This document shows, one piece after another, positions 8,680 to 64,000 of a stretch of 64,000 nt of DNA. A program made the position numbers and the translations under genes. The notes under the pieces were generated by a model, which saw only the letters and a list, made by a program, of their open reading frames with translations, was not told the origin of the DNA and did no database searches. Each line of letters starts with the position of its first letter. Within the stretch, counting starts at the first letter, position 1. The DNA comes from an uncultured Thermoplasmatales archaeon (GTDB lineage: Archaea; Thermoplasmatota; Penumbrarchaeia; Penumbrarchaeales; Penumbrarchaeaceae): contig CAZLVP010000011.1 in NCBI GenBank assembly GCA_964563055.1, forward strand, positions 4,367 to 68,366. The letters run 5' to 3'.

Positions 8680-8688
8680 AACGGGCGG

Positions 8689-25865: not shown

Positions 25866-27773
25866 GTGAGACCATTGAACGAACTACTTCTGAACGAACC
25901 AGGTAAGAAAATTTTGGTCCTGGGCAACGAAGCGATAGTCAGGGCTGCTGTAGAAGCGGGAGTCAAGGTAGCTGCCACCTATCCAGGGACCCCTTCTTCC
26001 GAAATAGGGAACACACTGCAGGAGATCGCTAAGGACGCAGGGATGTACTTCGAATTCTCTATAAACGAAAAGGTCGCGTTCGAGACCGCAGCGGCAGCGG
26101 CAGCGGCTGGCACCAGGGCCTTTACCTTCATGAAACATGTTGGTCTAAATGTCGCTTCGGATGCCTTCATGACCCTTGCCTACTCCGGGGTCAGAGGGGG
26201 CTTCATCATCCTTTCTGCTGACGATCCCGGGGCACATTCGTCCCAGAACGAACAGGACAACCGCTATTTTGCCAAGATGGGCTATGTCCCCATGCTCGAA
26301 CCATCGAACCCTGACGAAGCGAAGAGGATGATGCTTGCCGGGTTCGAACTATCGGAGAGGTACGGAGAGCCGGTCCTCTTCAGGACCACCACCAGATTGA
26401 ACCATGTCCGGGGCGTCATTGAGCTGGGAGATATCAGACCCCAGGTCGGCAGGGTGCATTTCGAAAAGGATGCGTCCAGGTTCGTCATGGTCCCTTCCAA
26501 CGCCCGCAAGAGACATCTTGTGGTCCTTGAGAACATGGTCAAGCTCAGAGATGCTTCGGAGGTCTCAGAGTGGAACAGGGTCATAGCGACACGGAAGAAG
26601 AACACCAAGGGCGGGCTCAAGCTCGGTCTGATCACATCAGGGGTCTCCTACAATTATATCATGGAAGTACTTGATAACATAGAGCTCGAAGTGGAGGCCA
26701 GGGTGCTAAAGCTCGGTATGACCCATCCGCTCCCGGAGGACATGATATCAGAGTTCTGCCAGAGCTCCGACCTAGTTGTCATGGTAGAAGAGGGTGAGCC
26801 CTTTATTGAGGAAGGCGTGAAGACCATACTTAAAGAGAGGGAGCTGCCAGTTCCGGTCCTTGGAAAGAGAGATGGCTTCTTCCCCATACCCGGGGAGTAC
26901 AATCCTGATGTCGTCCTAAGGGGGCTCTCTGAGGCCCTCTGTGCTTCCGGCCACAATGTCGAGACCATCGAAAATGAAACATTGCCCTGGAAGACCTTGC
27001 CCGAACCCCCCAGGCCTCCCGTTATGTGCGCTGGCTGCCCCCATAGGGCCACTTTCTTTGCCGTAAAAAGGGCGACAAAGGGAAAAGCGGTGTTCCCTAA
27101 CGATATCGGTTGTTATACGCTCGGGATCGCTCCACCCACGAACGTTGGGGACCTCATGGTCTGTATGGGAAGCAGCGTTGGGACCGCAGGAGGTCTCTCA
27201 AGGGTCGTCGATGAACCTGTCATAGGCTTCATTGGTGATTCCACCTTCTTCCATTCTGGGGTCCCGGGCCTGCTGAGCGCGGTCCACAATGGCCACAGGT
27301 TCGTCCTGAACATAATGGACAATGCGGCGACGGCAATGACGGGACATCAACCCCACCCCGGCCTCCCGCTCAACGGGATGAACGAGGAGGCAAAGGCCAT
27401 CAGCCTGGAGAAGGTCTGCAAGGGAGTGGGGGTAGAGTTCATCAGGACCGTCAATCCCTTGAACATCAAGGAGACCCAGAAAGCGTTCGAGGAGGCCCTG
27501 GCCTATGAGGGGGTCTCGGTCGTCATAACGAAGTCTCCTTGTGCCCTGCTCCTTGAAAGGAACCTTGCAAGAAGGAGTATCAAGAGGAAGCGCTACGAGG
27601 TCTATCAGGACATATGCAAGCGCTGCGATGTCTGCACCAAGACCTTTGCCTGCCCGGCCTTCTACAAGGTCGGCAAGGACCATTTCATAGACCCTGAGCT
27701 CTGCTGGTCCTGTGGTGTCTGCGAGCAGATCTGTCCCTTCCATGCCATGGGCCCTATAAAGGGGAGTGATTGA
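25866..27773 (+). CDS. iorA: Indolepyruvate:ferredoxin oxidoreductase alpha subunit (copy 1)
   Basis: 635 aa. GNEAIVRAAVEAGVKVAATYPGTPSSEI, CAGCPHRA, GDSTFFHSG, and a C-terminal CKRCDVCTKTFACP / CWSCGVCEQICP. GTG start. Confidence 0.85.
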   Translation: MRPLNELLLNEPGKKILVLGNEAIVRAAVEAGVKVAATYPGTPSSEIGNTLQEIAKDAGMYFEFSINEKVAFETAAAAAAAGTRAFTFMKHVGLNVASDAFMTLAYSGVRGGFIILSADDPGAHSSQNEQDNRYFAKMGYVPMLEPSNPDEAKRMMLAGFELSERYGEPVLFRTTTRLNHVRGVIELGDIRPQVGRVHFEKDASRFVMVPSNARKRHLVVLENMVKLRDASEVSEWNRVIATRKKNTKGGLKLGLITSGVSYNYIMEVLDNIELEVEARVLKLGMTHPLPEDMISEFCQSSDLVVMVEEGEPFIEEGVKTILKERELPVPVLGKRDGFFPIPGEYNPDVVLRGLSEALCASGHNVETIENETLPWKTLPEPPRPPVMCAGCPHRATFFAVKRATKGKAVFPNDIGCYTLGIAPPTNVGDLMVCMGSSVGTAGGLSRVVDEPVIGFIGDSTFFHSGVPGLLSAVHNGHRFVLNIMDNAATAMTGHQPHPGLPLNGMNEEAKAISLEKVCKGVGVEFIRTVNPLNIKETQKAFEEALAYEGVSVVITKSPCALLLERNLARRSIKRKRYEVYQDICKRCDVCTKTFACPAFYKVGKDHFIDPELCWSCGVCEQICPFHAMGPIKGSD

Positions 27774-28389
27774 AATGGTGCGAAAGAATGCTGATGCTTT
27801 TACCATCCAGATCGTTGGCGTCGGAGGGCAGGGAGCCTTGACCGTTTCAAAGGCCATAGGGAACGCGGCTATGAAGAAGGACATACCCATAATCATTTCC
27901 GAGATCCACGGGATGGCCCAAAGAGGCGGGGTGGTCCAAACGACCATTCGATTGGGGAGTACGGTCTCTCCTCTCCCCTTCGCTTCCGATATGACCATAC
28001 TCCTGGGAATGGAGCCTCTTGAGGTCTACAGGGCCAGAGAGCAGATAACAAGCGAGACTGTGGTGGTGTTCAGCGAGGACCCCATCAGGCCTGTGAGCGT
28101 CAGTTCCGGCGGATCGCCCTATCCTGATGTGAAGGAGATAATCGAGGAAGTGAGGGGTAAGGCCCAGTGCGTCTATCATCTCTCCGCCAGGGATAAGGCC
28201 AAGCTAGCAGGTAACGATAAGACCACCAATATAGTCATGCTAGGGGCGATCATGGGGACCGGGGTCCTTCCTTTCACGAAGGAGGAGATGCGTGGGTCCG
28301 TCAGCGCTTCCGTCCCCAAGAGAGCGCTCGAGGCAAACCTTAAAGCCTTCGACCTTGGATACGAGGCCGTCCATGGCTCTTGCAGGTGA
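27766..28389 (+). CDS. iorB: Indolepyruvate:ferredoxin oxidoreductase beta subunit (copy 1)
   Basis: IQIVGVGGQGALTVSKAIGNAAM..IPIIISEIHGMAQRGGVV. Overlaps the iorA stop. Confidence 0.8.
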   Translation: MIEMVRKNADAFTIQIVGVGGQGALTVSKAIGNAAMKKDIPIIISEIHGMAQRGGVVQTTIRLGSTVSPLPFASDMTILLGMEPLEVYRAREQITSETVVVFSEDPIRPVSVSSGGSPYPDVKEIIEEVRGKAQCVYHLSARDKAKLAGNDKTTNIVMLGAIMGTGVLPFTKEEMRGSVSASVPKRALEANLKAFDLGYEAVHGSCR

Positions 28390-30166: not shown

Positions 30167-32497
30167 TTGATTAGCAGGCTCTCCCCTGACCCGGCGATGA
30201 GGGTGAAATGGGGTGCCCTGCTGTCCGTCCTTGCAGTGTTGCTTCTCCTCGGTAGCGCTTTCCATCTTCTTTTCTCCCGAGAGGACCGCGAACATTTCCG
30301 TTCAAGAATGGACCGGGAGGCGCATAGTATTGAGGGTGGGGTTGTCTGGATCTCCCACAAGGTCAAGGGTGACGGGTTCAAGGTCCTCATGGACAGGGGC
30401 TGGGAGGACGTCCTTGTCAAGGGTGTGAACATGGGCATTTCCAAACCAGGCCATCTGCCAGGGGAATGCTCCATAACCTACGAGGAGTACTACAGATGGT
30501 TCGGGCTCATATCGGATTTGGGAGCCAATACCATCAGGGTCTATACCGTGCATCCTCCTGACTTCTACAGGGCACTGTACGAACACAATCGGAGGGCCAA
30601 AGAGCCGCTCTTCCTCCTCCAGGGCATCTACTATTCGGAGGATATCCTCTTATCGAGCGGAGACCCCTTTGATGCTGATGTGAACCACTCGTTCATGAAG
30701 GCCATCGAAAGGACCATAGACGTCATCCACGGGAAGGCGGAGATAGCTCCGACCCCGGGGAACGCTTCAGGGTCATTCCGTGTCGATGTCTCCGATCATG
30801 TCATCGGCATAGTGATCGGGATCGAATGGGACCCTATGCTGGTCAAGGGGACGATCGAGTCATACCCGGAGATAACGCGTATGAAGGGGTCGTTCCTGGA
30901 AGTGGGGGACGGTAACGCCTTCGAGGTCTGGTTGGCTCACATGATGGACCATACAGCTCGATATGAGACGGAGATGTACTCCGAGCAGAGACCGCTAAGC
31001 TTCATCAACTGGCCAACGACGGACAAGTACGACCATCCTTACGAGTCGTTCTATCACGAGGACCTAGTTTCGCTGGACCCGGACGTCATGGTCCCCACAT
31101 GGAACATGGTCCCGGGGCTCTTTGCCACATACCATGTATACCCGTACTATCCGGACTTCATGACGCTGGAACCTGAATACCTGGACTATCTCGATGCCGA
31201 GGGGAAGAAGGACAATTATGCCGGATACCTCCATGAGCTAAAGACGACACATTCCATGCCCGTCCTCATAGGCGAGTTCGGGGTCCCATCCTCCCGTGGA
31301 ATTGCACATGAAGGTCTCGATGGCAGGGACCACGGGCACATGACGGAGGAGGAGCAGGGTCAGGTCCTCTCGGAACTGTTCAGGTGCATCGTCTCCGAAG
31401 GCCTGGCCGGAGGTCTCATCTTCTCCTGGCAGGATGAATGGTTCAAGAGGACATGGAACACAATGGACCTGACGGAACCGGACAGGAGGGCCTGCTGGAT
31501 GGACGTTCAGACCTGCGAGCAGCATTTCGGACTGCTGGCGTTCGACCCTGCATCGCCCGGGACCAGGACGATCGATGGGAACGATGCTGATTGGGAGGAG
31601 GGTTCGACCAGCCTGTTCCTAAAGGATGGAGGTCCATTGAACCCGCTCGGGGACGGCTTCGACCAGCAGAGGACGATAGAGGGACTCAGGATATCGAACG
31701 ATGAGGCCTACATCTACATAGGGTTAGGGACCGGGGCGACCAGCGGGTCGAACTGGGATATGGTGAACATGCTCGTCCTCATCGATACCATGAAGGGGCA
31801 AGGCTCGACCGAAGTACCGTTCGGAACAGGTCTCGGGAACGAGGTCGGGTTCGATTTCGTCGTTCAGATAAAGGGAGAGAACGGCTCGAGGGTCATGGTC
31901 GACAGCTACTACGACCTGCACGGTCACAGGAACGGCCATCAGCTGGGTCTGATCGAGGAGGCGCCCTATGCAAGCATCAAGGACAACGGGGTGTTCCATC
32001 CGATCCTGTTCACCGTGAACAGAGGGTTCTGGGTCCCTGCATCCGGCCAGTATATCCCATACAGAGCATTCGATGCGGGGGAGTTGAGATGGGGTGGATC
32101 CGATAGACCCTCGGAGACCTGCAGCTCCCTTACCGATATCTGCTCTTCGAGGAACGGGTCCTTCATAGAGCTCAGGTTGCCCTATCTCCTCCTCAATTTC
32201 AGGGACCCCAGCACCCGAAGCGTCAACGGGGACCCCTGGACGGAGGGTTTCGGATCGAGCAGGGTCATTGATGGCATCCGGCTGGCCGTCGTTACGTTCA
32301 AGCCGGGGTCCGACGGTAACGCCACAGGGGTCGCAGGTCCGCTGAAGGTCACCGACTCCCTGCCTGCTCCCGTTGACGGGGAATTAAAGTGGGACAGCCT
32401 GCCGTTCCATTCATGGAGCGGTTGGGAGGTCCCCCGGTACACAGAGAGGACGAAGGGGTCCTATCTCGCTGTCAAAGAGGCTTTCTCAGATAATTGA
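30167..32497 (+). CDS. Membrane-anchored extracytoplasmic protein with an N-terminal glycoside-hydrolase-like TIM-barrel region (family uncertain)
   Basis: N-terminal anchor WGALLSVLAVLLLLGSAF. VKGVNMGISKPG...ANTIRVYTVHPPDFY, LIGEFGVPSS and FSWQDEW resemble clan GH-A (beta/alpha)8 strand-4 and strand-7 acid/nucleophile contexts. ATG 30197 is the likelier start. Confidence 0.45.
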   Translation: MISRLSPDPAMRVKWGALLSVLAVLLLLGSAFHLLFSREDREHFRSRMDREAHSIEGGVVWISHKVKGDGFKVLMDRGWEDVLVKGVNMGISKPGHLPGECSITYEEYYRWFGLISDLGANTIRVYTVHPPDFYRALYEHNRRAKEPLFLLQGIYYSEDILLSSGDPFDADVNHSFMKAIERTIDVIHGKAEIAPTPGNASGSFRVDVSDHVIGIVIGIEWDPMLVKGTIESYPEITRMKGSFLEVGDGNAFEVWLAHMMDHTARYETEMYSEQRPLSFINWPTTDKYDHPYESFYHEDLVSLDPDVMVPTWNMVPGLFATYHVYPYYPDFMTLEPEYLDYLDAEGKKDNYAGYLHELKTTHSMPVLIGEFGVPSSRGIAHEGLDGRDHGHMTEEEQGQVLSELFRCIVSEGLAGGLIFSWQDEWFKRTWNTMDLTEPDRRACWMDVQTCEQHFGLLAFDPASPGTRTIDGNDADWEEGSTSLFLKDGGPLNPLGDGFDQQRTIEGLRISNDEAYIYIGLGTGATSGSNWDMVNMLVLIDTMKGQGSTEVPFGTGLGNEVGFDFVVQIKGENGSRVMVDSYYDLHGHRNGHQLGLIEEAPYASIKDNGVFHPILFTVNRGFWVPASGQYIPYRAFDAGELRWGGSDRPSETCSSLTDICSSRNGSFIELRLPYLLLNFRDPSTRSVNGDPWTEGFGSSRVIDGIRLAVVTFKPGSDGNATGVAGPLKVTDSLPAPVDGELKWDSLPFHSWSGWEVPRYTERTKGSYLAVKEAFSDN

Positions 32498-36454: not shown

Positions 36455-39400
36455 TCACTCCTCGTCCCATTCTGCATAGCCGTTCTCTTCCACAGCTCCC
36501 TTCTTCCTTGACCTGGCCAAGAAGAAGATTGCGAGAAGCACCAGGATAAGTAGCAGAATGCCGGCTGCAATGTAGATTAGCATGGATGGGTCTATCAATG
36601 GTTCCTTTTCATCAACGATGACCTCGAAGCTCTCGGTGTCCTTGTTCCCCTCAGGGTCCGTGACGGTGAGCTCGACCTTGTAGGTCCCCTTCTGTTCCGG
36701 CATGAAACCGGTCTTGACCCCGTAGAGGACGAAGGTCGTTCCGTCGGGGGCGGTCACCTTCCAGGTGTAGTTCAAGTTATCGGATGTATCGGTCGTCTTG
36801 GAAGCATCAAGGACAACCTTCTTACCGACCTCTGTCTTTTCCGGGATTTCCCTGACCTCCACCACCGGTGCTTTATCGTCCACTACTATCGTTGACACAG
36901 TATCTATAGCTGTATTTCCAGAAAGGTCTTTTACAGTTATCTCGAAATGGAGCTCCATAGGGACCGTGGTCAAGAAGGTATAGGAGACCTTATCGTCACT
37001 TCGAACTAGGGGATAGGTCCCTAATAGCACCTGTTCGGAAACAACGGTCATTACGATGGTATCTATCGCAACGTTATCACTTACTGTGGCCTCTATAGGT
37101 ATCTCGACATCGAGACCGTACTGTGTGAGCAATTTAACTGCCTGAACGAGCGGTACATCATCATCATAGACATCAATTGATAATGTGATGTTGGTCCACA
37201 TGACCCCATCATGGACGGAGAGCTGGACATGGCCTGTCCCGATGGTATCGGATGCGGCTTCGACCTCGGCACTGAAGCTCCCGTTGGGAAGCGTGCCTGA
37301 GCTCTCAACGATCAAAGGTCCGTCAATTACGGTGACGTTCATGCCTTTGATACCTATATTGTCCGAACCTGCGAAGAGGACCGTCCCCACCGACCCCGTC
37401 CCTAGGTTATTCGTAATGCATAGGACCGTTAATATTGGAGCATCATCATCGATCAGTTGGCCACTGAGCCAATCTGATATCTCCTGGTTCCCGCTGGTAT
37501 CGTTGCATACTGTTCTGAACCGGATTGTGCCTGTCCTGTTGGATGGCATGGTCAATACACATGACCAGGATTCATTTTGTGGAGGAATGGTTATCCAATC
37601 AAGCCCAAGTTCAAACTTTTCCATAGAAAAGACCTCATGCGTGATATTGCCTGGAAACAGGACCTGCAGTTCTACAGAATGGACTTTGATATTATCTGTT
37701 GGGTAACAACGCATTATCGTTTCCTCTCCGGTCGTATATGGTCCGGGACCATCTGAGTATAGTTTTAAAATCGCAGAAGGACGGATCGTATCTATTACCA
37801 TAAGAGAGAACGTTCCTGAAGTGTTTTCATTGCCTGAGGAATCGGTCATTTTAAAGCTGTAGGTCAGCTCACCGATCCTTTCTATCGGAACGGTCCATAT
37901 AGCTCCGTATTTGAATTCCATATTCCCAGTCATGCTCTGGAAAGAAAGGTCAAGAGCTAGCTCATAATCTACCATATCCCCCGTTATGGTAACCGATGAG
38001 ATGTTGATGTTCTCTTGAACAATGCAGACGAACTCGAAGGGTTCCCCAGTGCTCGCATCCTTTGAGCTTTGGTCTTCAATGAACCCCGGTCTGTCATTGT
38101 CCAGTAAGGGAACGGACCTTTGCTCTGTCTTGAAATGATTTGCTGCATCATCTGCCAGGTCGAAAATATATGAGATGTTGCCAACTGCCGTGACCGGGAT
38201 ATTCACGACGCTGTACCAGCGTCCCTTCATCGGGTCATAGGACGCTATTTTGACATCCCGATCGGAACCACCGATGCGGGTCTCTATGCTTACTTTGCCC
38301 ACACCAATATTATCACCGGCCCTCAATGAGATATTGAACGCTTCACCTGTCGTTGCTAGAAGGTCCGATGTGTCCATTATCATGTAGGGAAGGTCATCGT
38401 CCAGGATATCGATCCAGGTATCCGATGTTACCATCACGTTCCCGGATGTGTCCCTCGCAAAGATGCGATAGGTGATGTTCGTATCCACCGCAGGTCCTAT
38501 GGTCACCATTCTGGTGTAGTTGCCGTCAGAACCCTTCTGCATGGACTGGTTCACACCGGTCTGGCCCCCTATCGAATAGACCAATCTCACATCAAGGATG
38601 GCGATATTGTCCATCACACTGACATTCACGATGAAAGGGTCACCAGTGGTGGGTGGGAGTACGGTATTGTCCCCGATGAACTTTGGGGCATCATCGTCAA
38701 TGATCGTTCTGTACCTAACTATGGTCGAGTTGAGGTTGTTAGAGGTGTCGTTGTAGAAGAACTGGTAGCTAATACTTCCTATGGAATCCGATGGCAATAC
38801 TATCAATGTCGAGCGGATATCTCCAGGGCCGCACAAGGATATGTTTTGCGGGGGACCTCCCGCTATACTGTAGTTCACATTAGCCATCCCCACACCGACA
38901 TTGTCGAACAGATGGGCCTCGAACCTGAAGCTGTCCCCGGTCGTTGCGGTCAAAGTGGAATTGTCCAATATGAGCCTAGGTAGGTCATTGTCCGTTATCG
39001 CAAATTGATACCAGACAGAATGGTTCCAGTTGCCCTTGACATCCCTAGCCCCGACCTTGAACCAGAACCTGGTGGTCCTATCTGTCGGATGGTTGTTGAT
39101 GAAAGAGTAATTGTTAGGTCCGGATTTGTACATAGAGCTGTTAATGGTCTTGGTCGGTTGTGTGTCCGACCAGTTATAGTTGATGACGGCTGAAGAGACC
39201 TCTACATTATCGGTTATCAAAGCATTTATCTTAAAATCGTCACCTGTGGTCTTGGCCCCTAGTTGATCTACCGAAACTATCCGTGGCCTCTCGATATCGG
39301 ACCCTACCAGGACGGTCTTTAAGAGCGGTTTGAAGTTCCTTGCTGTCACCGTTAGGTTCATCCTCAGGGTTATCTGGGGCAACGTGATGGAGCATTTTCC

Positions 39401-41479
39401 ATCAGAGCCTGTGGTCCCGGTACCGTAGAACTCGGTCAGGTTCATCAGGCACACCTTTGCCCCGTTCACCGGGCTACCTGAACCATCGGTCACCGTGAAT
39501 GTATAGCTTCCAGGTGATGGGACTGGATCGCTGTGGGAAATGGAGAGCGTTCCGGGCCTCTTGGTCCAGATAGGGATCTCTGGGTCCCCCATCAGGTTGT
39601 ACTGGAGCAGGTTCTTCCATGAGTAGCGGTCATGGGCGGTCTTGTCCTGGATGTAATCGTACTTGGATAAGGCCAGGGCCTTGCCCGGTTGGTAGTTGCC
39701 GGCAAAGAACTGCTGCCAGAACCTGTAATCATGCCCCTGGTTGTAGTAACCACCGTCCGAGCCCTTTGCCCATGGTTTTGAGTACCAGCTTACCCTGGCG
39801 GACCCGACGGCGCCGATCCCCACATCGAGGAGGATGTCCTCTGTTAGGCAGGTGGTCCTGTCGAACTCGCCGTTGTTGCAGGCATCGTTGTAGAAAAGTG
39901 GTTTCTTCCCACCGTTCGTCTGGGAAGCAGAGGTCGTATAATATGCCGTATCGGAGGTCTCTCCGGAATCGCATATCTTGTTACCATTCGTGTCACCGTT
40001 CCAAACCCTCCTGTAGATCCCAGTACTTGAACCATGACCTGCCATGTTCACCATGAAAGCGCCTGGATCTATGGCGCTCACCATATTGGAGTTGGTCAGA
40101 GATGCATTGCAGCTGAACTGGGATGGCCAGATGCCAGCCTTCTCGTAAAGGGTGTAAGGGTTGTAGCTCGTGATCGAGAGGAAATCCGACCTTATGGCCT
40201 CCTTGAGGGTCGCTTCGTCCGTTGTATCGTTCGATGTGCTCGATTCCTTGTAGTTGGAATAGGCCCCCGCTAGGACCGCTCTGTTGTACCAGCTGCCTGA
40301 GGGCGGGTTCTTCTCATAGTTCAAGATATTGTTCACCAGGGTCTGCATGTTGTTGGTGGTCGAAACAGATAATCTCCCGACCCAGACCTCGGCGTTCAGA
40401 TCTATGCCGTCCACGGAGTACTCACCGTAGTTACCGTCATCGTCCCCATCCCAGTCATAGGGATTGTGGCCTGACCCGGCAATATCACCGTAATAGGAAT
40501 CGGCCGGGACCGTGTTCCCATCGCTACCACTATCATCGTATCCGTCAGGTATGTATGCCATCCTGCTTGGCACGACGCTATGGTCACCACCTATGACGAC
40601 CCATTTGAGGTTCTCGTTCGTGTAGAAGGCCTTGATGCAGTTCCTGATCTTTTCCTGAGCGTCGGATCCGGTGTAGACGGACGATATCCATCCTGTCTCC
40701 ACTATGCGTGTAGGGACCCCTCTCATGGTCTTCCATTCTGCAAGTGGCCTCAATGTCGAATTGTAGGTGGATGTCGTTATTATAAGGCACTCTGTGGGGG
40801 GGAACCTGTTCGTGTAGGATGGTTGAGCGGTCGGGGTGGGAGATGTGTCCATTGACTGGGATGACCAGATGGGGCCTACAACCTCTTCTTCCGTTCCGAT
40901 CTCGGTCGGAGATGGGAGGTCCTCAGGTACATTTGTTTCGGGAACCACATCGCTGGAACCGGTCGCAACCAGTGCCTTGATGGTCGTTGGCCATGTCAAT
41001 ACCTTCCCCTCGGTCCTGAACGGTGAGATGCGCAGGACCCAGAACCTCATATTCCCCTTTTCAAGGATACCAAGGTCCCTGATGGTCATCTGTTCCTCAT
41101 CATCTCCGGTCTTAAAGGAAGGGGCACTGATATCATTGAACGGTTCGGGTACATCTACCACTTCGTTATCAAGGACCCATCTTTCAACACCTAATGGTAT
41201 CGTATCCAGAATGACAGGGTCCTCACCTTCTCCCAAAGGCAGGAAATAGCTCCTTTCCGGTAGCATCGGCTTTCCGACCAAGGATGATGTCCCCCAACCA
41301 TCTATCATTATGATGGACCCAGAACTACCATCCTCCATCGTTGGGTAAGGGACATCCCAGACAAGAACGGTCAGACCCGCCCCTGGCATGTTGTCAGTAT
41401 CGCTAGCAAGGTCATGGCCCTCTGCTGGAAAGGCGGCCACTACGAACAATACTATGAACAAGGCATTGAAAATCTTCAT
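36455..41479 (-). CDS. Giant surface-anchored peptidase C25 (gingipain-like cysteine peptidase) with many Ig-like repeats, a PKD domain and a C-terminal TM anchor
   Basis: Signal peptide MKIFNALFIVLFVVAAFPAEG. Catalytic contexts MAGHGSSTG (His) and LFYNDACNNGEFD (Cys) parallel gingipain TGHGSET / FDVACVNGDF. At least 8 ~100-aa repeats carry D-N-(I/V)-x-(I/V/L) cores (TDNVEV, FDNVGVG, MDNIAIL, GDNIGVG, SDNIGIK, TDNIKVH, SDNVAID). PKD-like LDASKTTDTSDNLNYTWKV...TVTDPEGN. TM LIYIAAGILLLILVLLAIFFL. Confidence 0.8.
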   Translation of the reverse strand: MKIFNALFIVLFVVAAFPAEGHDLASDTDNMPGAGLTVLVWDVPYPTMEDGSSGSIIMIDGWGTSSLVGKPMLPERSYFLPLGEGEDPVILDTIPLGVERWVLDNEVVDVPEPFNDISAPSFKTGDDEEQMTIRDLGILEKGNMRFWVLRISPFRTEGKVLTWPTTIKALVATGSSDVVPETNVPEDLPSPTEIGTEEEVVGPIWSSQSMDTSPTPTAQPSYTNRFPPTECLIITTSTYNSTLRPLAEWKTMRGVPTRIVETGWISSVYTGSDAQEKIRNCIKAFYTNENLKWVVIGGDHSVVPSRMAYIPDGYDDSGSDGNTVPADSYYGDIAGSGHNPYDWDGDDDGNYGEYSVDGIDLNAEVWVGRLSVSTTNNMQTLVNNILNYEKNPPSGSWYNRAVLAGAYSNYKESSTSNDTTDEATLKEAIRSDFLSITSYNPYTLYEKAGIWPSQFSCNASLTNSNMVSAIDPGAFMVNMAGHGSSTGIYRRVWNGDTNGNKICDSGETSDTAYYTTSASQTNGGKKPLFYNDACNNGEFDRTTCLTEDILLDVGIGAVGSARVSWYSKPWAKGSDGGYYNQGHDYRFWQQFFAGNYQPGKALALSKYDYIQDKTAHDRYSWKNLLQYNLMGDPEIPIWTKRPGTLSISHSDPVPSPGSYTFTVTDGSGSPVNGAKVCLMNLTEFYGTGTTGSDGKCSITLPQITLRMNLTVTARNFKPLLKTVLVGSDIERPRIVSVDQLGAKTTGDDFKINALITDNVEVSSAVINYNWSDTQPTKTINSSMYKSGPNNYSFINNHPTDRTTRFWFKVGARDVKGNWNHSVWYQFAITDNDLPRLILDNSTLTATTGDSFRFEAHLFDNVGVGMANVNYSIAGGPPQNISLCGPGDIRSTLIVLPSDSIGSISYQFFYNDTSNNLNSTIVRYRTIIDDDAPKFIGDNTVLPPTTGDPFIVNVSVMDNIAILDVRLVYSIGGQTGVNQSMQKGSDGNYTRMVTIGPAVDTNITYRIFARDTSGNVMVTSDTWIDILDDDLPYMIMDTSDLLATTGEAFNISLRAGDNIGVGKVSIETRIGGSDRDVKIASYDPMKGRWYSVVNIPVTAVGNISYIFDLADDAANHFKTEQRSVPLLDNDRPGFIEDQSSKDASTGEPFEFVCIVQENINISSVTITGDMVDYELALDLSFQSMTGNMEFKYGAIWTVPIERIGELTYSFKMTDSSGNENTSGTFSLMVIDTIRPSAILKLYSDGPGPYTTGEETIMRCYPTDNIKVHSVELQVLFPGNITHEVFSMEKFELGLDWITIPPQNESWSCVLTMPSNRTGTIRFRTVCNDTSGNQEISDWLSGQLIDDDAPILTVLCITNNLGTGSVGTVLFAGSDNIGIKGMNVTVIDGPLIVESSGTLPNGSFSAEVEAASDTIGTGHVQLSVHDGVMWTNITLSIDVYDDDVPLVQAVKLLTQYGLDVEIPIEATVSDNVAIDTIVMTVVSEQVLLGTYPLVRSDDKVSYTFLTTVPMELHFEITVKDLSGNTAIDTVSTIVVDDKAPVVEVREIPEKTEVGKKVVLDASKTTDTSDNLNYTWKVTAPDGTTFVLYGVKTGFMPEQKGTYKVELTVTDPEGNKDTESFEVIVDEKEPLIDPSMLIYIAAGILLLILVLLAIFFLARSRKKGAVEENGYAEWDEE

Positions 41480-58897: not shown

Positions 58898-59155
58898 TCA
58901 GTCCACCGTATATATCCTGTTCCTTGACAGGTGCTCATAGACCATCGCACGTCTCTCCTCTGAGGCGGCATGGACGTTAAGGAGCAGCTCATTGCGCCTG
59001 ACCATGTCCTTGGCCTTCCTACCCATCTCTGTAACGCTCGAGACCTCCACCCTGTCCATTGGTGAGATGTCCATGTCATCAAGCATCTGCTCCGACATGA
59101 ACACTGTCCTATGGCCTCCTGTGGACAGGTCGAGCCTCTGGCATCTGGCCTGCAT
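58898..59155 (-). CDS. Hypothetical small protein (66-85 aa)
   Basis: An ORF on the same strand as, and downstream of, the iorA2B2 pair. No recognisable motif. The start may be the internal MSEQML. Confidence 0.25.
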   Translation of the reverse strand: MQARCQRLDLSTGGHRTVFMSEQMLDDMDISPMDRVEVSSVTEMGRKAKDMVRRNELLLNVHAASEERRAMVYEHLSRNRIYTVD

Positions 59156-59192: not shown

Positions 59193-59818
59193 TCAGTTGC
59201 TGAGGTCCGGGTGAGGTTCGCAGACCTTTGAGGCCTGCCAGTCCTTGAAGGCCTTCTCTCCGAGCTCGAAGGCCTTGAAGTTCGCCTCGACCATGTTCTG
59301 CGGCACCCTGGCCTTTATGGCAGCAAGGAGGGAGTCCCTGGAGATGGGCAGCTCGTTCGATGCGCTGAGGGTCCCCAGCATCACCACATTGGTCATTATG
59401 ACCGACCCTGCCTTGATAGCAAGATGGGTCGCATCGACGTCGACGAGGTCCTGTGTGGTCTGGATCCTCTCGATGATCTGGCATACATCGGGATACTTGG
59501 ACAGCCCAAGGTGGGAGTCGACCCCGACGAACGGTTCGTTGTTGAGTATGACCTTGGCACCTCTTTTGAGCAGTTTCAGCTGCCTCAATGCCTCCAATGG
59601 CTCGAAGGCAAGCAACATATCCCCTTTCCTCTGGGGTACCAGAACACCCTTGGCGTCAGGTCCTATCCTGAGGTGGGAAACGACGGTCCCACCCCGCTGA
59701 GCAAGACCGTGGACCTCTCCTACCCTGACATCGGTCCCTTCCTTGAGGGCCGCTTCGGCGATTATCCTGGTCGTGAGCACGACACCGTTGCCCCCGACAC
59801 CGGCAAGGACTATGTTCA
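59193..59818 (-). CDS. iorB: Indolepyruvate:ferredoxin oxidoreductase beta subunit (copy 2)
   Basis: MNIVLAGVGGNGVVLTTRIIAEAALKEGTDVRVGEVHGLAQRGGTV. Start set to ATG 59818, overlapping the iorA2 stop. The longer track ORF is an artefact. Confidence 0.8.
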
Positions 59819-61774
59819 TTTGGGCACCTCCTTCCTGATGGTCATGCCAAGCACACCTTCCTTCTTCCCCGGTATGGATATGGCATTGAACGGACAGGTC
59901 TGCAAGCAGAGGCCGCAACCGTTGCAGTGGGAGAGGACCTCCATATGCGGTTTCGGGTCCTGGCTCCAACCGAAGGCGGGGCAGCCTATCTTCTTCATAC
60001 ATACCTTGCACCCTGTGCATTTCCCGACATCCACGACCGCGACGGGCATCTTCAACTTCCGCTTCCTGAGGTTCCTCTCCACCACCAGCGCGCAGGGCGA
60101 CCTTGAGATAAGGACAGAGGGTCCATCGTAATCGACCTCCTCCATCACCGCTTCCACCAAGGCCTTAGTATCGAAGGAATTTATCACCTTGACATGCTCA
60201 ACACCAAGGGCCTCGACCACCTTCTTCAGGTTGGTGAACGGGGCTGGCATTCCCATGAGGTTCTGTCCACTACCTGGGTTCACCTGATGCCCCGTCATGG
60301 CCGTTATGGAATTATCGAAGATGAGCACGGTGATATTGGACCGGTTATGGACCGCGTTCAGCAAGGAGGGAATCCCTGCATGATAGAAGGTCCCATCCCC
60401 GATGACCGCAAGGGCCGGTTCGGCCGAGCCCGAGTGGAAGATGCCAGATGCCATGGCTATGGAAGCTCCCATGCATATGCAGGTGTCCATACCCTCCAGG
60501 GGCTCATAGGCGCCCTGGTTGTAGCAGCCCCTGTCACCCATCACCGAACCGCCCTTTCCCTTCTTCCTGATGGCCTCCTTTATCGCGAAATAGCTGGCCC
60601 TGTGAGGGCAACCAGCACATAGGGCAGGGATCCTGGGTGTGATGAGCTTCTCTGCCTCGACATAGGGCTCCGTGAGCTCCTCCCTGAACTTGATGCCAAA
60701 GACCTTTCCCAGAGCGTCCCCGACAAGGTCCGGGTTCAGCTCCCCGCTCCATGGAAGGATGTTATCGTCCTTGCCAATGATCCTGGCCGAGAGCCTTCTG
60801 TGCTGGGCGAGGGCCCTGACCTGCATCTCGGTAACATTGTCCCCTTCCTCGACTATCATGACCTGGTCCAGCTCCCTGATGAAGGACTCTATGAGGTTCT
60901 CCGGGATGGGGAACGTCGTCGCTAGCTTCAGGACCCTTGCACTAAGGCCCATGGCCTCAACGACCTCCTCGACATAAGGATAGGTCAGCCCCGAAGCGAT
61001 TATCCCGAAGGTGTTGAAAATCGAACCCCTGGAGAACTGTTTACCGTTCTGGAAGTCCTTGACCTTGTTCCATTTGTTCTGATCGTTTATCAGCTTGGCC
61101 TTCTCGATCTTCTCACGTAGGAGCTTCTGTCTGGGCCTGCTGTAGGTCGAAATCATCACGAACCTCTTCTTGTCCTTGATGAACTTACCGTCCCTCTTTG
61201 GTTTGGTAAGCTCTCCCAGCTCGACCGGGAAGGAGGAGTGACATATCCTTGGCGTTATCCTGACGAACACGGGGAGCTCCAGCTGTTCCGAGAGCTCGAA
61301 GGCGTACTTCGCCATGTCCTTCGCTTCCTGTCCGTCGGCCGGTTCAAGGACCGGTGCCTTGGCCAGCATCCCGTAGAACCTGGTATCCTCGGCGTTCTGT
61401 GACGAGAACTGCTGCGGATCATCGGCGGTCACTATGACCAGTCCCGCCCTGACACCGGTGACCGTTACGACTGTCAGCGCGTCGGCTATGAGGTTGACGC
61501 CGAGCATCTTAGTGGCCATCATGGCCCTGACGCCCGAGAACGCCGCCCCTGCAGCGACCTCTATCGCGACCGCTTCGTTCACGGAGAACTCGGCCCAGAA
61601 GCCAATGTCAGGTGCGACCTCTCCCAGCGCCTCGACGACATTGGTCGCCGGCGTCCCAGGATATGCAGTGACCACCGAGACGCCCGCTTCCAGGCAGCCC
61701 CTTGCCACCGCTTCGTTCCCTGACATCAGGACCTTCTCACCAGCCGTTCCAAGTAATGGACCCTTGCCTTTCAT
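59816..61774 (-). CDS. iorA: Indolepyruvate:ferredoxin oxidoreductase alpha subunit (copy 2)
   Basis: GNEAVARGCLEAGVSVVTAYPGTPATNV, CAGCPHRA, GDGTFYHAG, CTGCKVCMKKIGCP / CNGCGLCLQTCP. Confidence 0.85.
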   Translation of the reverse strand: MKGKGPLLGTAGEKVLMSGNEAVARGCLEAGVSVVTAYPGTPATNVVEALGEVAPDIGFWAEFSVNEAVAIEVAAGAAFSGVRAMMATKMLGVNLIADALTVVTVTGVRAGLVIVTADDPQQFSSQNAEDTRFYGMLAKAPVLEPADGQEAKDMAKYAFELSEQLELPVFVRITPRICHSSFPVELGELTKPKRDGKFIKDKKRFVMISTYSRPRQKLLREKIEKAKLINDQNKWNKVKDFQNGKQFSRGSIFNTFGIIASGLTYPYVEEVVEAMGLSARVLKLATTFPIPENLIESFIRELDQVMIVEEGDNVTEMQVRALAQHRRLSARIIGKDDNILPWSGELNPDLVGDALGKVFGIKFREELTEPYVEAEKLITPRIPALCAGCPHRASYFAIKEAIRKKGKGGSVMGDRGCYNQGAYEPLEGMDTCICMGASIAMASGIFHSGSAEPALAVIGDGTFYHAGIPSLLNAVHNRSNITVLIFDNSITAMTGHQVNPGSGQNLMGMPAPFTNLKKVVEALGVEHVKVINSFDTKALVEAVMEEVDYDGPSVLISRSPCALVVERNLRKRKLKMPVAVVDVGKCTGCKVCMKKIGCPAFGWSQDPKPHMEVLSHCNGCGLCLQTCPFNAISIPGKKEGVLGMTIRKEVPK

Positions 61775-61836
61775 ATTGTTTCACATCCGGTTTCTTGTTC
61801 CGTTCGTCCTTTCCACGGTTATCTTTCTCCCATACC

Positions 61837-64000
61837 TCACCTGCAGAGGCTTATGACCTGGCCCGATGAGACCTGGGATGTCACCTTCGTTTCCTTATCA
61901 CCATCGTTTATCATGATCTCGAACAGCATCCCATCCTTAGAAGGGCGTTTGACCATCTCGGAGCACTCGATGGACCTGAGGTTGATGCTCATCCCCTTCC
62001 CATCCTTTTTAAGGTATGCCTCCTTGGCAGAGAAGAGGACCGTCTGAAGCATGGACTGGTCCATGCCCAGGTCCGATGAGGTCTTGGAGATGAGCGCCCG
62101 TTCCTGCTCTGTGAACGCCTCCTCGGTGAAGGATGGGTCCCTATCGGCCTGGTTCTCGAGGTCAAGACCATGGGCGGTCTTCCCGACCGAAGCAACGGTG
62201 GACCCAAGGGAGTGGCTTATGGAAAGCTCCACCCTTTCACCTGCGACCATGCCGTAAGGTTTCCCTCCGGGCATGAACTCTATGGCCACCTCGGAAGGTG
62301 AAAGAGGCCTCCCTTTCTCGGTGGCATAGGTCCATGAGACACCAAGCTTGGCGACGAGAAGGCCCCAGATATGTTCTTTCCGTCTCTTTTCGGTCATCCT
62401 GTCATTTGTAAGTCCCCTTAGCTCGGGTCCTGAGAAATGGACGTTCAGCTCATCAGGAACGGGGGTCGTGTCAGGGAGGTCTACCTTGAACACCCTGATC
62501 CCCCTCGCCATGGTCGGAAGCTCGGAGAACAGCAATGTATGGTCCTTCTTGATCCGGTCCGCAAATGGCATGAGCCCCTTGAGCTGGTAATCTGAAAAGG
62601 ATATCCTCACATTACCGCTCAGGTCCAGGAGGTCAACATCGAAAGAGAACGTGTTCTCCTTCCTCTCCCTGAACCTTACATGGGCGGCCGCCATCTCGGA
62701 TGGGCCCATATGTGAGAACATCTCCAGCTTTCCGACCCTGACGGGCAGTGCCATCATATCGAACCTGTCAAGGACGTAACAGCCAGCCGTCTGGAAGCCC
62801 AGCTCGGTCTGCAAGGGCGAGAGGATGAGGTCCGCAGAGGTCCAACCCGTCGAGGGGTCGAACTGGTCCTGGGCAGGGACATTGAAGATGCCCAAAAGCT
62901 CGTCCTCTTTAAGGACCTCTATTGCAGAGGTGACCTGGAACCTGGGCCCGTGGAAGAAGTACCTGTATAGTTCTGCCTTGCCGACCTGCGACCTCACCGA
63001 TGAGGGGTGGAGCGGGTGGCCTTCCAAAGCCCTACAAACGTCAGGTGCCTTGCCTAGCTGCACAGTGCCGGTATAATGCTCCACCTCTGCTTCCTTGCCC
63101 TTACGGTCCTTGCCGGTGGAGCGGACACGGAGGGATACCGACCTGACCGGTCCGTCACGCTCTATGAGCTCCCCTTCCACGAATATCTCGAGCTGGCCTT
63201 CTACGTTGACCGGTTTCTTGAACATCATATCCCTTATGGATATGACATCAAGGTCCGGGGCGAGCAACCTTGCGGTCTCGGCCAAAAGCTCCATGCCCAT
63301 GACCCCGGGCATCACCATGGTCCCCATTATGGTGTGGTCTTTGAGGAACAGTTCCTTCGAACCATCCAGGACCTTTCTGACCACCACCCTGTTCGGGGTG
63401 AGAGAGACCACGGAACCTATTAGCGGGGAGGTGCTCTTAACGCTGATCGCGGGACCAGGCCTTGATGGGGCTGGTGGTCGGGCCTTTGGGGAATGAACGC
63501 CCTCCTCCCATTTCAGCTGCCCACCGCTGTCCAGCGGACCAAGGGTCCCGGCGTAGAACACCTCGCGCTCGGTCCCCGATGTCATCTCGCCTATTGCGAA
63601 ACCTATACCCTCCTCAACCGGTATGAAAGATATCCCGCCTAGCTCGAGCAGGGTCTTTATGGAACCCCTTGAGGCCATCCCTATCTCTGCCCATGCGGAC
63701 CAACCGACGGCCTTTACAAGGCAGTCAGGATGGTATTTCCTTACAGCGCCCCCTATCTTGTCCAGCAGGTCGTTCGCCGCCGAATAGTCCACCTGACCCG
63801 CGTTGCCGAACCTGCCAGAGACCGAAGTGAATGTCATGAAAAGCTTCAACGGGTGGTCCCTGGTCGCTTTGATGAGAGCGAACGCACCGTTGACCTTCGT
63901 GTCGTAGACCTTGTTGAAATCGGAGAGCTCCTTCCCGGCCATCATTTTGGAGATGTCAACACCAGCGCAGTGGAGAAGGGCATCGAACGGTCCGTGCTGT
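61837..64000 (-). CDS. Type I PKS-like multidomain protein, C-terminal part: KR (partial) - DH - 4'-phosphopantetheinyl transferase; the 5' end lies beyond the window
   Basis: The frame stays open to nt 64000 (...QHGPFDALLHCAGVDISKMMAGKE). KR: SVSGRFGNAGQVDYSAAN. DH: LKDHTIMGTMVMPGV (exact HxxxGxxxxP) and LYRYFFHGPRFQ. PPTase: LSISHS, HGLDLE, FSAKEAYLK. Confidence 0.75.
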   Translation of the reverse strand, partial: QHGPFDALLHCAGVDISKMMAGKELSDFNKVYDTKVNGAFALIKATRDHPLKLFMTFTSVSGRFGNAGQVDYSAANDLLDKIGGAVRKYHPDCLVKAVGWSAWAEIGMASRGSIKTLLELGGISFIPVEEGIGFAIGEMTSGTEREVFYAGTLGPLDSGGQLKWEEGVHSPKARPPAPSRPGPAISVKSTSPLIGSVVSLTPNRVVVRKVLDGSKELFLKDHTIMGTMVMPGVMGMELLAETARLLAPDLDVISIRDMMFKKPVNVEGQLEIFVEGELIERDGPVRSVSLRVRSTGKDRKGKEAEVEHYTGTVQLGKAPDVCRALEGHPLHPSSVRSQVGKAELYRYFFHGPRFQVTSAIEVLKEDELLGIFNVPAQDQFDPSTGWTSADLILSPLQTELGFQTAGCYVLDRFDMMALPVRVGKLEMFSHMGPSEMAAAHVRFRERKENTFSFDVDLLDLSGNVRISFSDYQLKGLMPFADRIKKDHTLLFSELPTMARGIRVFKVDLPDTTPVPDELNVHFSGPELRGLTNDRMTEKRRKEHIWGLLVAKLGVSWTYATEKGRPLSPSEVAIEFMPGGKPYGMVAGERVELSISHSLGSTVASVGKTAHGLDLENQADRDPSFTEEAFTEQERALISKTSSDLGMDQSMLQTVLFSAKEAYLKKDGKGMSINLRSIECSEMVKRPSKDGMLFEIMINDGDKETKVTSQVSSGQVISLCR

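What the first reader, a model, noticed from the sequence alone, without database searches (positions are those of the whole stretch)
61837..64000. Enediyne/polyene-type iterative PKS tail (KR-DH-PPTase fusion) in an archaeal genomic context
The minus-strand ORF at the right edge has no stop up to nt 64000 and reads as three fused domains. The first is the distal half of a PKS ketoreductase (HCAGV..., SVSGRFGNAGQVDYSAAN with the catalytic Tyr). The second is a PKS double-hotdog dehydratase with a perfect HxxxGxxxxP motif (DHTIMGTMVMP, His codon about 63334-63336) and the GPxFQ motif (LYRYFFHGPRFQ). The third is a C-terminal Sfp/AcpS-type phosphopantetheinyl transferase (LSISHS, HGLDLE, FSAKEAYLK; about 61840-62500). 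A KR-DH-PPTase order at the C-terminus of one polypeptide is the hallmark of bacterial enediyne PKS (PksE: KS-AT-ACP-KR-DH-PPTase) and related polyene-forming iterative synthases. Every informational gene in this window is archaeal (polB, rfcS, GPN GTPase), and type I PKS are rare in archaea. The gene is followed 62 nt downstream, on the same strand, by a second iorAB pair. That pair could supply an aryl- or acyl-CoA, but this link is speculative. An archaeal self-priming PKS would be a notable and probably undescribed natural-product or lipid pathway.
Basis: partly seen in the sequence, partly recalled or inferred. Interest (0 to 1): 0.8.

Follow-up and report, generated by a model that had tools for sequence, protein, structure and literature searches.

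The report
Tail of an archaeal lipid megasynthase
The open reading frame at the window's right edge is the last fifth of a roughly 3,300-3,800-residue fatty-acid/polyketide-type megasynthase in a Thermoplasmatota archaeon; the family is known in bacteria but uncharacterised, and its carrier domains carry threonine where all known ones carry the essential serine.

Summary

The enediyne (PksE) reading is not supported. Intact relatives in four Thermoplasmatota MAGs and one Heimdallarchaeota MAG are single ORFs of 3,258-3,793 aa. Their order is KS-malonyl-AT-second active KS-4 to 6 tandem carrier domains-KR-DH-PPTase, preceded in most by a FabK-like domain. This matches the uncharacterised bacterial "Type R" PfaA-like secondary lipid synthase of Shulse & Allen (2011). 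In most bacteria the PPTase is a separate downstream gene; in the archaea it is fused.

The archaeal setting is real. Two independent MAGs are collinear with the window at 81-85% nucleotide identity over about 10.7 kb, and iorAB follows the synthase in eight Thermoplasmatota lineages.

The window's own upstream part could not be retrieved. Short-read assemblies of its closest relatives break inside the carrier repeats.

The unexpected finding lies upstream of the window. Of 217 carrier domains from 90 loci, 216 have Thr at the phosphopantetheine-Ser position and one has Ser. This suggests a dedicated Thr-accepting PPTase. The product is unknown.

The parts
61837..64000 (-). 3' end of the synthase gene: the last 720 codons plus the stop at 61837-61839. 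The gene runs on past nt 64000.
   Evidence: no stop up to the window edge. Database protein P0001 (1095 aa, 100% identical) extends it by 375 residues.
63535..63999 (-). Distal (catalytic) half of the ketoreductase domain. Pfam KR covers 63688-63990. The catalytic Tyr codon is at 63784-63786, within SVSGRFGNAGQVDYSAAN.
   Evidence: Ser434, Tyr447 and Asn451 (P0001 numbering) are invariant in alignment A1.
62578..63426 (-). PKS-type double-hotdog dehydratase. The catalytic His codon is at 63334-63336 (HTIMGTMVMP). Also present: YRYFFHGPRF and ELGFQTAG (Glu-x3-Gln).
   Evidence: Pfam PKS_DH_N and PS-DH. Foldseek matches trans-AT PKS, CurF and MAS dehydratase domains at E about 1e-17 to 1e-19, with TM normalised to the target about 0.8. 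His597, Glu774 and Gln778 are invariant.
61840..62529 (-). Sfp-type (two-lobed) 4'-phosphopantetheinyl transferase domain fused to the DH. The Pfam ACPS core covers 61939-62169. Motifs: SISHS, GLDLE, SAKEAYLK.
   Evidence: Pfam ACPS 40.6 bits against a cut-off of 25. Model pLDDT 88.4; best PDB matches are Sfp 4MRT (E 1.2e-11), human AASDHPPT, PcpS and PptT. His, Asp, Glu and Lys-Glu are invariant in A3.
61775..61836 (-). 62-nt spacer between the synthase stop codon and iorA.
   Evidence: Coordinates. No terminator-like site was found in the spacer (that scan is bacterial-type only). The spacer is 27-61 nt in four relatives.
59816..61774 (-). iorA, indolepyruvate:ferredoxin oxidoreductase alpha subunit. 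It is the conserved downstream neighbour and a possible operon partner.
   Evidence: TIGR03336 scores 667.8, above the 650.9 cut-off. The same position is occupied in L001, L002, L007, L015, L016 and L018.
59193..59819 (-). iorB, the beta subunit. It overlaps the end of iorA by 4 nt.
   Evidence: TIGR03334 scores 200.1, just under the 205.8 cut-off. Pfam POR E 9e-37.

Best explanation
The ORF is the C-terminal KR-DH-PPTase portion of one very large iterative type I FAS/PKS-like synthase in a Thermoplasmatota archaeon. It is an archaeal form of the PfaA-like 'Type R' secondary lipid synthase.

Shown by homology. Intact relatives read [FabK-like]-KS-AT-KS2-(carrier domain x4-6)-KR-DH-PPTase. The AT carries GHSLG and, in the main Thermoplasmatota clade, the HAFH malonyl signature. 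KS2 keeps Cys-His-His.

Inferred working.
1. The fused Sfp-type PPTase transfers phosphopantetheine from CoA onto the tandem carrier domains. Archaea generally have no housekeeping ACP/PPTase system to do this (my own knowledge).
2. The AT loads malonyl units.
3. The two KS domains condense.
4. The KR encoded in the window reduces each beta-keto group.
5. The DH encoded in the window removes water to give an enoyl thioester.

Whether the enoyl is then reduced is open, because the N-terminal FabK-like domain of the Thermoplasmatota proteins has Arg where FabK has a conserved His. The product is therefore a long acyl chain, either polyenoic/hydroxylated or saturated. Its identity and its release step are unknown; no thioesterase domain was seen in the Pfam scan of the L015 ORF.

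The carrier domains have Thr at the attachment site. I infer that the family's own PPTase has co-evolved to use it.

The downstream IOR might supply an arylacetyl-CoA or acyl-CoA starter, or reduced ferredoxin. That is speculation resting on conserved adjacency alone.
For: Domains and catalytic residues in the window.

The two closest relatives (L002 85%, L001/L003 82-83% aa identity) continue upstream in frame into a carrier domain and stop only at the contig edge.

Intact single ORFs:
- L014, 3793 aa
- L015, 3716 aa
- L018, 3741 aa
- L019, 3325 aa
- L052, 3258 aa
- L082 (Heimdallarchaeota), 3576 aa

A Pfam scan of the whole L015 ORF gives KS, AT, a second KS, PP-binding repeats, KR, DH and ACPS. 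Long-read contig L010 shows the same gene split only by indel errors; one extra base breaks the GHSxGE motif.

PfaA is the best NCBIfam model for the KS (475.6 bits), the carrier domains (329.3 bits) and KR-DH (102.7 bits).

Type R is described as KS-MAT-CLF-ACP(3-6)-KR plus a downstream PPTase, sometimes with an ACC gene, in Koribacter, Solibacter, Elusimicrobium and Roseiflexus. The profile scan recovered Roseiflexus (L026), Korobacteraceae (L054), Solibacteraceae (L084) and Elusimicrobia (L013) with that layout.

Acetyl-CoA carboxylase genes flank the archaeal synthase in L019 and L082.

The archaeal setting is real. The window is collinear with L001 and L002 at 81-85% nt identity from 64000 down to 53342. 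The window carries a family B DNA polymerase. The main Thermoplasmatota clade is monophyletic in a rough NJ tree.
Against: The window's own upstream sequence could not be obtained.

P0001 is called from an ATG just after the position where relatives have the last carrier domain. So in this genome the gene could be split, or the contig could end there.

A bacterial homologue, P0030, is a free-standing carrier x2-KR-DH-PPTase with no KS within 10 kb. A KS-less arrangement therefore exists in nature.

No product, expression or modification data exist for any member, and no release enzyme was identified.

iorAB is absent next to the synthase in L014 and L019, so that link is not universal.

The NJ tree has no support values.
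Confidence: 0.82

Rival explanations
1. It is an enediyne-type PKS (PksE: KS-AT-ACP-KR-DH-PPTase) that makes a conjugated polyene precursor.
For: DH followed by a PPTase at the C-terminus is the PksE arrangement (my own knowledge), and that order is present. If the FabK-like domain is inactive, the KS/KR/DH set would give polyenes, as PksE does.
Against: Intact relatives have a second active KS, 4-6 tandem carrier domains and mostly an N-terminal FabK-like domain, and are about twice the size of PksE. The best curated model is PfaA. The neighbours scanned with Pfam are Fe-S proteins, iorAB, an AMP-phosphorylase-like gene, adenylate kinase, ACC and others, with no hotdog thioesterase among them. 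A protein that JGI labels 'enediyne PKS' (P0130) matches at only 27% identity and 167 bits. Type R bacterial proteins with comparable KR-DH coverage score about 190-250 bits.
Confidence: 0.03
2. In this genome the KR-DH-PPTase is a separate protein. The gene would be split from the KS-AT-KS-carrier part, or be a KS-less free-standing unit like P0030.
For: P0001 is called from an ATG immediately after the last carrier-domain position. P0030 is a free-standing carrier x2-KR-DH-PPTase with no KS within 10 kb. The KS-AT search returned no protein from a contig of 102,061 nt, the length of P0001's contig.
Against: In the 82-85% relatives the frame stays open upstream through a carrier domain to the contig edge. 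All six intact archaeal genes are single ORFs. The most economical reading is that short-read assemblies break in the near-identical carrier repeats; five Thermoplasmatota contigs and one Asgard contig end there.
Confidence: 0.1
3. The PKS tail is bacterial DNA joined to an archaeal contig by mis-assembly or mis-binning.
For: GC in the last 4 kb is 0.57, at the upper end of the window's range of 0.455-0.598.
Against: The same junctions (synthase-iorAB-downstream genes) are found at 81-85% nt identity in two independently assembled MAGs. They recur at 40-50% aa identity in at least eight further Thermoplasmatota contigs with archaeal-type neighbours. GC is within the window's range.
Confidence: 0.02
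4. It is a canonical PUFA synthase subunit (PfaA of a pfaABCD system) that makes EPA- or DHA-like fatty acids.
For: PfaA is the best-scoring curated model, and tandem carrier domains are a PfaA hallmark.
Against: All scores are far below the PfaA cut-off of 1010 bits. No pfaB, pfaC (FabA-type DH) or pfaD genes occur within 10 kb in any archaeal locus. There is an extra active KS and a fused PPTase. The carrier motif has Thr instead of the LGIDS motif of PUFA synthases (the PUFA motif is from my own knowledge).
Confidence: 0.03

Closest known systems
'Type R' secondary lipid synthase cluster (Shulse & Allen 2011, PMC3098273): one pfaA homologue, KS-MAT-CLF-ACP(3-6)-KR, plus a downstream PPTase, in Koribacter, Solibacter, Elusimicrobium and Roseiflexus. 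Product unknown.
   Same: Same domain order and 27-33% identity over KR-DH. Tandem carrier domains. A dedicated PPTase next to the DH. An ACC gene nearby in some members. Members of the reference taxa were recovered by the same profile.
   Different: The host is archaeal. The PPTase is fused to the DH rather than being a separate gene. The Thermoplasmatota and Heimdall proteins have an N-terminal FabK-like domain. The 'CLF' keeps a full Cys-His-His triad. iorAB lies downstream in the window's lineage. The 2011 paper mentions neither the DH, nor the Thr in the carrier domains, nor archaea.
PfaA of bacterial PUFA synthases (NCBIfam TIGR02813)
   Same: It is the best curated HMM for the KS, carrier and KR-DH parts. 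The KS-MAT-tandem carrier-KR-DH order is shared.
   Different: Scores are below the cut-off. There are no PfaB, PfaC or PfaD partners. There is an extra KS, a fused PPTase, and Thr instead of Ser at the carrier attachment site.
Enediyne PKS (PksE; SgcE, CalE8, DynE8)
   Same: An iterative synthase with a PPTase fused after KR-DH, so it primes itself.
   Different: PksE has a single ACP, a single KS and no FabK-like domain, is about half the size, and comes with an enediyne cassette that was not found here.
Sfp / HetI group II phosphopantetheinyl transferases
   Same: Same fold (Sfp 4MRT E 1.2e-11, TM 0.63-0.66). The catalytic motifs are conserved. There is a weak HetI match.
   Different: It is fused to a synthase and is very divergent: only 13 clusters at E <= 1e-10 among 1.84 billion representatives. 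Its presumed substrates carry Thr, not Ser.

Membership tests
Enediyne PKS (PksE) | One polypeptide of about 1,900 aa with KS-AT-single ACP-KR-DH-PPTase | tested here: not met
   Intact relatives are 3,258-3,793 aa with two KS domains and 2-6 tandem carrier domains (4-6 in Thermoplasmatota). The window itself shows only KR-DH-PPTase.
Enediyne PKS (PksE) | PPTase domain fused C-terminal to the DH | tested here: met
   Pfam ACPS after PS-DH in the same ORF. Sfp-type fold.
Enediyne PKS (PksE) | Enediyne cassette neighbours (hotdog thioesterase, UNBL/UNBV/UNBU) | tested here: not met
   The neighbours scanned in the window and in the archaeal loci are iorAB, an Fe-S protein, an AMP-phosphorylase-like gene, adenylate kinase, DnaJ, ACC, NosD-like and TPR proteins. 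Caveat: only about 10 kb per side was available, not every neighbour ORF was scanned, and cassette proteins without a Pfam model could be missed.
PUFA synthase PfaA (TIGR02813) | Whole-protein score above the curated cut-off (1010.1 bits) | tested here: not met
   Window fragment 102.7 bits. L010 pieces 475.6 and 329.3 bits. An intact ORF was not scored as a whole.
PUFA synthase PfaA (TIGR02813) | Partner genes pfaB, pfaC (KS-CLF-FabA-type DH x2) and pfaD | tested here: not met
   Domain queries found no additional KS or AT outside the synthase ORF within 10 kb in six archaeal loci, and the flanking ORFs scanned with Pfam show no FabA-type DH or separate enoyl reductase. The rest of these genomes was not searched.
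Type R secondary lipid synthase (Shulse & Allen 2011) | A single pfaA homologue with KS-MAT-CLF/KS2-ACP(3-6)-KR | tested here: met
   Met in relatives L014, L015, L018, L019 and L052. For the window's own gene only a carrier remnant (seen in the 82-85% relatives) plus KR-DH is visible.
Type R secondary lipid synthase (Shulse & Allen 2011) | A dedicated PPTase encoded directly after the synthase | tested here: met
   Present, but fused rather than separate. It is a separate gene in Elusimicrobia L013 and in Chloroflexota and Spirochaetota loci.
Type R secondary lipid synthase (Shulse & Allen 2011) | Homology to the synthases of the reference taxa (Roseiflexus, Koribacter, Solibacter, Elusimicrobium) | tested here: met
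   Profile A1 recovered Roseiflexus sp. (L026), Korobacteraceae (L054), Solibacteraceae (L084) and an Elusimicrobia MAG (L013) with the same layout. The type strains themselves were not compared.
Sfp-type (group II) PPTase | ACPS family match, a two-lobed Sfp fold, and the catalytic His, Asp-x-Glu and Lys-Glu motifs | tested here: met
Sfp-type (group II) PPTase | Transfers phosphopantetheine to a conserved Ser of the carrier domain | not testable with these tools
   The cognate carrier domains have Thr at that position in 216 of 217 cases. Whether Thr is modified needs mass spectrometry.

The most novel reading that the evidence does not exclude
The synthase family, including this archaeal member, uses carrier domains whose phosphopantetheine arm is attached to threonine instead of serine, installed by a co-evolved PPTase that is fused in the archaea. 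That would be a carrier-protein chemistry not described before. It would also mean that Thermoplasmatota and Heimdall archaea make a polyketide- or fatty-acid-derived lipid on their own, independent of any ACP/FAS system.
Probability: 0.4. Interest if true: 0.85.

Novelty: new variant of a known kind. Interest (0 to 1): 0.6.

Why it matters
Archaea build membranes from isoprenoids and generally lack ACP-dependent fatty-acid synthesis (my own knowledge). A self-contained synthase with its own activating enzyme would give them an acyl- or polyene-lipid pathway of unknown role. It is kept across a whole Thermoplasmatota clade and is also present in Heimdallarchaeota. That bears on the archaeal-bacterial lipid divide and on the origin of eukaryotic lipids.

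The bacterial family occurs in hundreds of species in GTDB and has had no known product since 2011.

The near-universal Thr at the carrier attachment site (216 of 217) is a sharp anomaly. E. coli ACP S36T cannot be modified (PMC3340395). If Thr is the real attachment site, that implies a new PPTase specificity, which could serve as an orthogonal tagging pair.

For the window alone the result is more modest: the tail of a large gene, correctly read at domain level but wrongly assigned to the enediyne class.

Tried and rejected
Extending the window.
- P0001's contig is not on record.
- An exact 52-mer from the window's end is absent from metagenome contigs.
- The window's genome is not among the GTDB species representatives.

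Finding the missing N-terminal contig of the closest MAGs by exact or degenerate carrier-repeat DNA. Only the same two contigs came back.

Literature.
- No paper holds the motif GIDTVKQ.
- No paper combined the terms carrier protein, threonine, phosphopantetheinylation and 'instead of serine'.
- No follow-up on Type R turned up.
- Nothing relevant on archaeal PfaA.
- The library covers open-access papers only.

Other attempts.
- P0130, labelled 'enediyne PKS' by JGI, was tried as a PksE reference. It lacks AT, ACP and PPTase by Pfam, so it is a poor comparator.
- DynE8 did not appear among the top 60 PDB sequence matches of the KS-AT region. That says little either way.
- The sigma-70 promoter and terminator scan of the iorAB junction is uninformative for an archaeon.

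Rejected readings: enediyne PKS, canonical PUFA synthase, chimeric assembly. Reasons are given under the rivals.
Full report
**1. Observation**

The minus strand of window 61837-63999 translates into 720 codons without a stop, ending at a stop codon at 61837-61839. The ORF therefore runs off the window. The ORF list shows it only from an internal ATG.

Pfam finds four domains above their cut-offs:
- The distal half of a KR (profile positions 81-179 of 180).
- PKS_DH_N.
- PS-DH.
- An ACPS phosphopantetheinyl transferase.

SVSGRFGNAGQVDYSAAN lies at 63772-63825, and the DH His codon at 63334-63336.

An AlphaFold model of the DH-PPTase part is confident (pLDDT 90.6). Its DH half superposes on solved PKS dehydratase domains. 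A separate model of the last 240 residues (pLDDT 88.4) matches Sfp, human AASDHPPT, PcpS and PptT best.

The next gene, 62 nt downstream on the same strand, passes the IOR_alpha equivalog cut-off. The one after it scores just under the IOR_beta cut-off.

**2. What the whole gene looks like**

The database holds the window's own protein as P0001 (1095 aa). It starts at a Met 375 residues upstream of the window edge. Its contig could not be fetched.

The two closest relatives are Thermoplasmatales PPR_0074 (85% aa identity) and Thermoplasmatota Prado236 (82-83%). In both, the frame continues upstream of that Met into the C-terminal part of a carrier domain and then hits the contig edge.

The same break occurs in L007, L016 and the Asgard contig L011. 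L017 breaks within the KR. This pattern is what near-identical tandem repeats do to short-read assemblies.

Assemblies that got through the repeats show single ORFs:

| Locus | Organism | ORF length (aa) |
|---|---|---|
| L014 | Thermoplasmatota | 3,793 |
| L015 | Thermoplasmatales | 3,716 |
| L018 | Thermoplasmatota | 3,741 |
| L019 | Thermoplasmatota | 3,325 |
| L052 | Thermoplasmatota | 3,258 |
| L082 | Heimdallarchaeota | 3,576 |

The domain order is N-terminal domain-KS-AT-KS2-carrier x2 to 6-KR-DH-PPTase. L052 has no detectable N-terminal domain. Heimdall L082 has two carrier domains; the Thermoplasmatota genes have four to six.

A Pfam scan of the whole L015 ORF confirms this order. A long-read contig of the L018 lineage (L010) carries the same gene broken into four ORFs by indels. 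One of these is a single extra base inside the AT motif GHSxGE.

Further details:
- Both KS domains keep Cys-His-His.
- The AT has GHSLG in all six intact ORFs. It has the malonyl-type HAFH motif in the four of the main Thermoplasmatota clade.
- The N-terminal domain is a FabK/NMO-type TIM barrel. It scores 39 bits in L014 and 81 bits in L082.
- That domain aligns to FabK enoyl-ACP reductases. Three of the four main-clade Thermoplasmatota proteins read EGGGR where FabK reads GGH; L019 shows no matching motif.
- The Heimdall protein has a second, canonical copy of this domain, ECGGH.

**3. Which family**

PfaA (TIGR02813) is the best NCBIfam model for every part, always below its whole-protein cut-off.

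Shulse & Allen (2011, PMC3098273) defined a 'Type R' secondary lipid synthase cluster. It has one pfaA homologue, KS-MAT-CLF-ACP(3-6)-KR, followed by a PPTase gene, and in Koribacter an ACC gene lies between them. It occurs in Koribacter, Solibacter, Elusimicrobium and Roseiflexus, and its product is unknown. The paper does not mention archaea.

They include Roseiflexus, Korobacteraceae, Solibacteraceae and many Chloroflexota, Actinomycetota, Acidobacteriota, Spirochaetota and Myxococcota.

Three layouts are seen:
- An Elusimicrobia scaffold reads KS-AT-KS2-carriers (with an N-gap inside the repeats)-KR-DH, then a separate 214-aa PPTase, then a carboxyltransferase.
- Solibacteraceae reads synthase, then a single-chain ACC of 1,883 aa, then the PPTase.
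- The Thermoplasmatota, Asgard and one Bradymonadales locus have the PPTase fused. In Heimdall L082 the fusion is inferred from the ORF length and the match; my tblastn map missed it.

Thermoplasmatota L019 is followed by a 2,142-aa single-chain ACC, and Heimdall L082 is preceded by a carboxyltransferase.

I therefore file the gene as an archaeal, PPTase-fused variant of Type R. The enediyne class fails on domain count, size and neighbours, and canonical PfaABCD fails on its partner genes (see the membership table).

**4. Is it really archaeal?**

- The window is collinear at 81-85% nucleotide identity with two independently assembled MAG contigs from 64000 down to 53342.
- The synthase-iorA-iorB order recurs in L001, L002, L007, L015, L016 and L018, and L017 shows at least iorB.
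- Adenylate kinase and an AMP-phosphorylase-like gene recur nearby even where iorAB is missing.
- The window carries a family B DNA polymerase.
- GC content of the last 4 kb is within the window's range.

A rough NJ tree of KR-DH puts the eleven Thermoplasmatota sequences of the window's clade together, next to Myxococcota and Bradymonadales. The Asgard pair and L052 fall elsewhere. That suggests several transfers from bacteria, followed by vertical inheritance. The tree has no support values, so this is tentative.

**5. The unexpected feature**

Every carrier domain reads DLG(I/V)DTVKQ. In alignments to E. coli ACP, Streptomyces ACP and PigH, the Thr sits exactly on the phosphopantetheine Ser (DSLDTVELV against DTVKQVELF).

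A census of 217 carrier domains in 90 loci gave 216 Thr, 1 Ser and nothing else. The single Ser is the first carrier domain of L019.

E. coli ACP S36T cannot be modified and is non-functional (PMC3340395).

Two things make me think the hydroxyl is used and Thr is specifically selected:
- Only a hydroxyl residue is ever found at this position.
- The family has its own PPTase, fused or adjacent in most loci. The window's PPTase domain has only 13 relatives at E <= 1e-10 among 1.84 billion cluster representatives.

This is an inference. I found no paper that mentions it. The carrier domains lie outside the window.

**6. Mechanism and product**

- Shown: intact catalytic motifs for KR, DH and PPTase in the window. 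In relatives, two KS triads and a malonyl-type AT.
- Inferred: self-priming, iterative malonyl extension, and beta-keto reduction and dehydration at each round.
- Unknown: whether the FabK-like domain reduces the enoyl, the chain length, the starter unit and the release step. No thioesterase domain was seen.

The IOR pair could provide an arylacetyl-CoA starter or reduced ferredoxin. Its adjacency is conserved in the window's clade but not in L014 or L019, so I treat this as a weak lead.

**7. Prior knowledge and novelty**

The family was catalogued in bacteria in 2011. A 'potentially novel PKS' with PUFA-like KS domains was noted in a Heimdallarchaeota MAG in 2020 (PMC7472256). BGC surveys list PKSs in Thermoplasmatota and Asgard archaea without analysing them (PMC11051675).

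I found no description of any of the following:
- the Thermoplasmatota clade of this synthase;
- the PPTase fusion;
- the active second KS;
- the FabK-like domain;
- the ACC and IOR linkages;
- the Thr carrier site.

I rate it a new variant of a known kind. Interest is moderate to high, mostly because of the Thr anomaly and the archaeal lipid question, and is tempered because the window holds only the tail.

Noticed in passing
Upstream of the window. Seen in L014 (nt 7889-9979), L015, L018, L019, L052, L082, L010, L013 and about 80 bacterial loci.: All carrier (ACP-like) domains of the family have Thr at the phosphopantetheine-Ser position (DLGIDTVKQ): 216 Thr, 1 Ser, 0 other across 90 loci. 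E. coli ACP S36T is known to be unmodifiable.
   Followed up: partly
L019 10833-17261 (Thermoplasmatota M17C-73-04); also L084 12428-18076 (Solibacteraceae): A single-chain, multidomain acetyl-CoA carboxylase (BC-BCCP-ACC_central-CT; 2,142 aa in the archaeon) lies directly after the synthase. An ACC with the ACC_central domain in an archaeal MAG is unusual in itself.
   Followed up: partly
window about 59011-59017: Compared with the 81-85% identical contigs L001 and L002, the window lacks about 1.25 kb holding an AMP-phosphorylase-like gene (Glycos_transf_3, about 504 aa). That gene follows iorB in L001, L002, L007, L015 and L018.
   Followed up: partly
window 25866-28389 (+) and 23693-24898 (+): A first iorA-iorB pair, only about 40% and 35% identical to the pair next to the synthase, sits about 1 kb downstream of a porA-like 2-oxoacid oxidoreductase gene. 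The genome therefore keeps two divergent IORs.
   Followed up: partly
L010 3603-7718 (residues about 330-870); L015 ORF residues about 1380-1930: The domain that Shulse & Allen called CLF keeps a full Cys-His-His triad (NSACAS, HETYT, KGYTGH) in all archaeal genes. It is a second condensing KS, not a chain-length factor.
   Followed up: yes
L014 1871-2950; L082 2054-4240: The N-terminal FabK/NMO-like domain reads EGGGR where FabK has GGH in three of the four main-clade Thermoplasmatota proteins. The Heimdall protein has two such domains, and the second is canonical (ECGGH).
   Followed up: partly
L005/L006 10001-13528 (P0030): A bacterial homologue (neighbours include DUF1501 and PSCyt2 proteins, which I associate with planctomycetes) is a free-standing carrier x2-KR-DH-PPTase with no KS or AT within 10 kb.
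   Followed up: no
L014 625-1545; L015 937-1842; L012 4974-5642: A 220-306-aa protein with a C-terminal 4Fe-4S dicluster domain lies upstream of the synthase on the same strand in three Thermoplasmatota loci: directly adjacent in L014 and L015, and about 4.4 kb upstream in L012.
   Followed up: no
window 1727-5731 (-), 36455-41479 (-), 30167-32497 (+): Three large ORFs (1,334, 1,674 and 776 aa) were not studied. The 776-aa ORF had no Pfam hit at E <= 1e-4.
   Followed up: no
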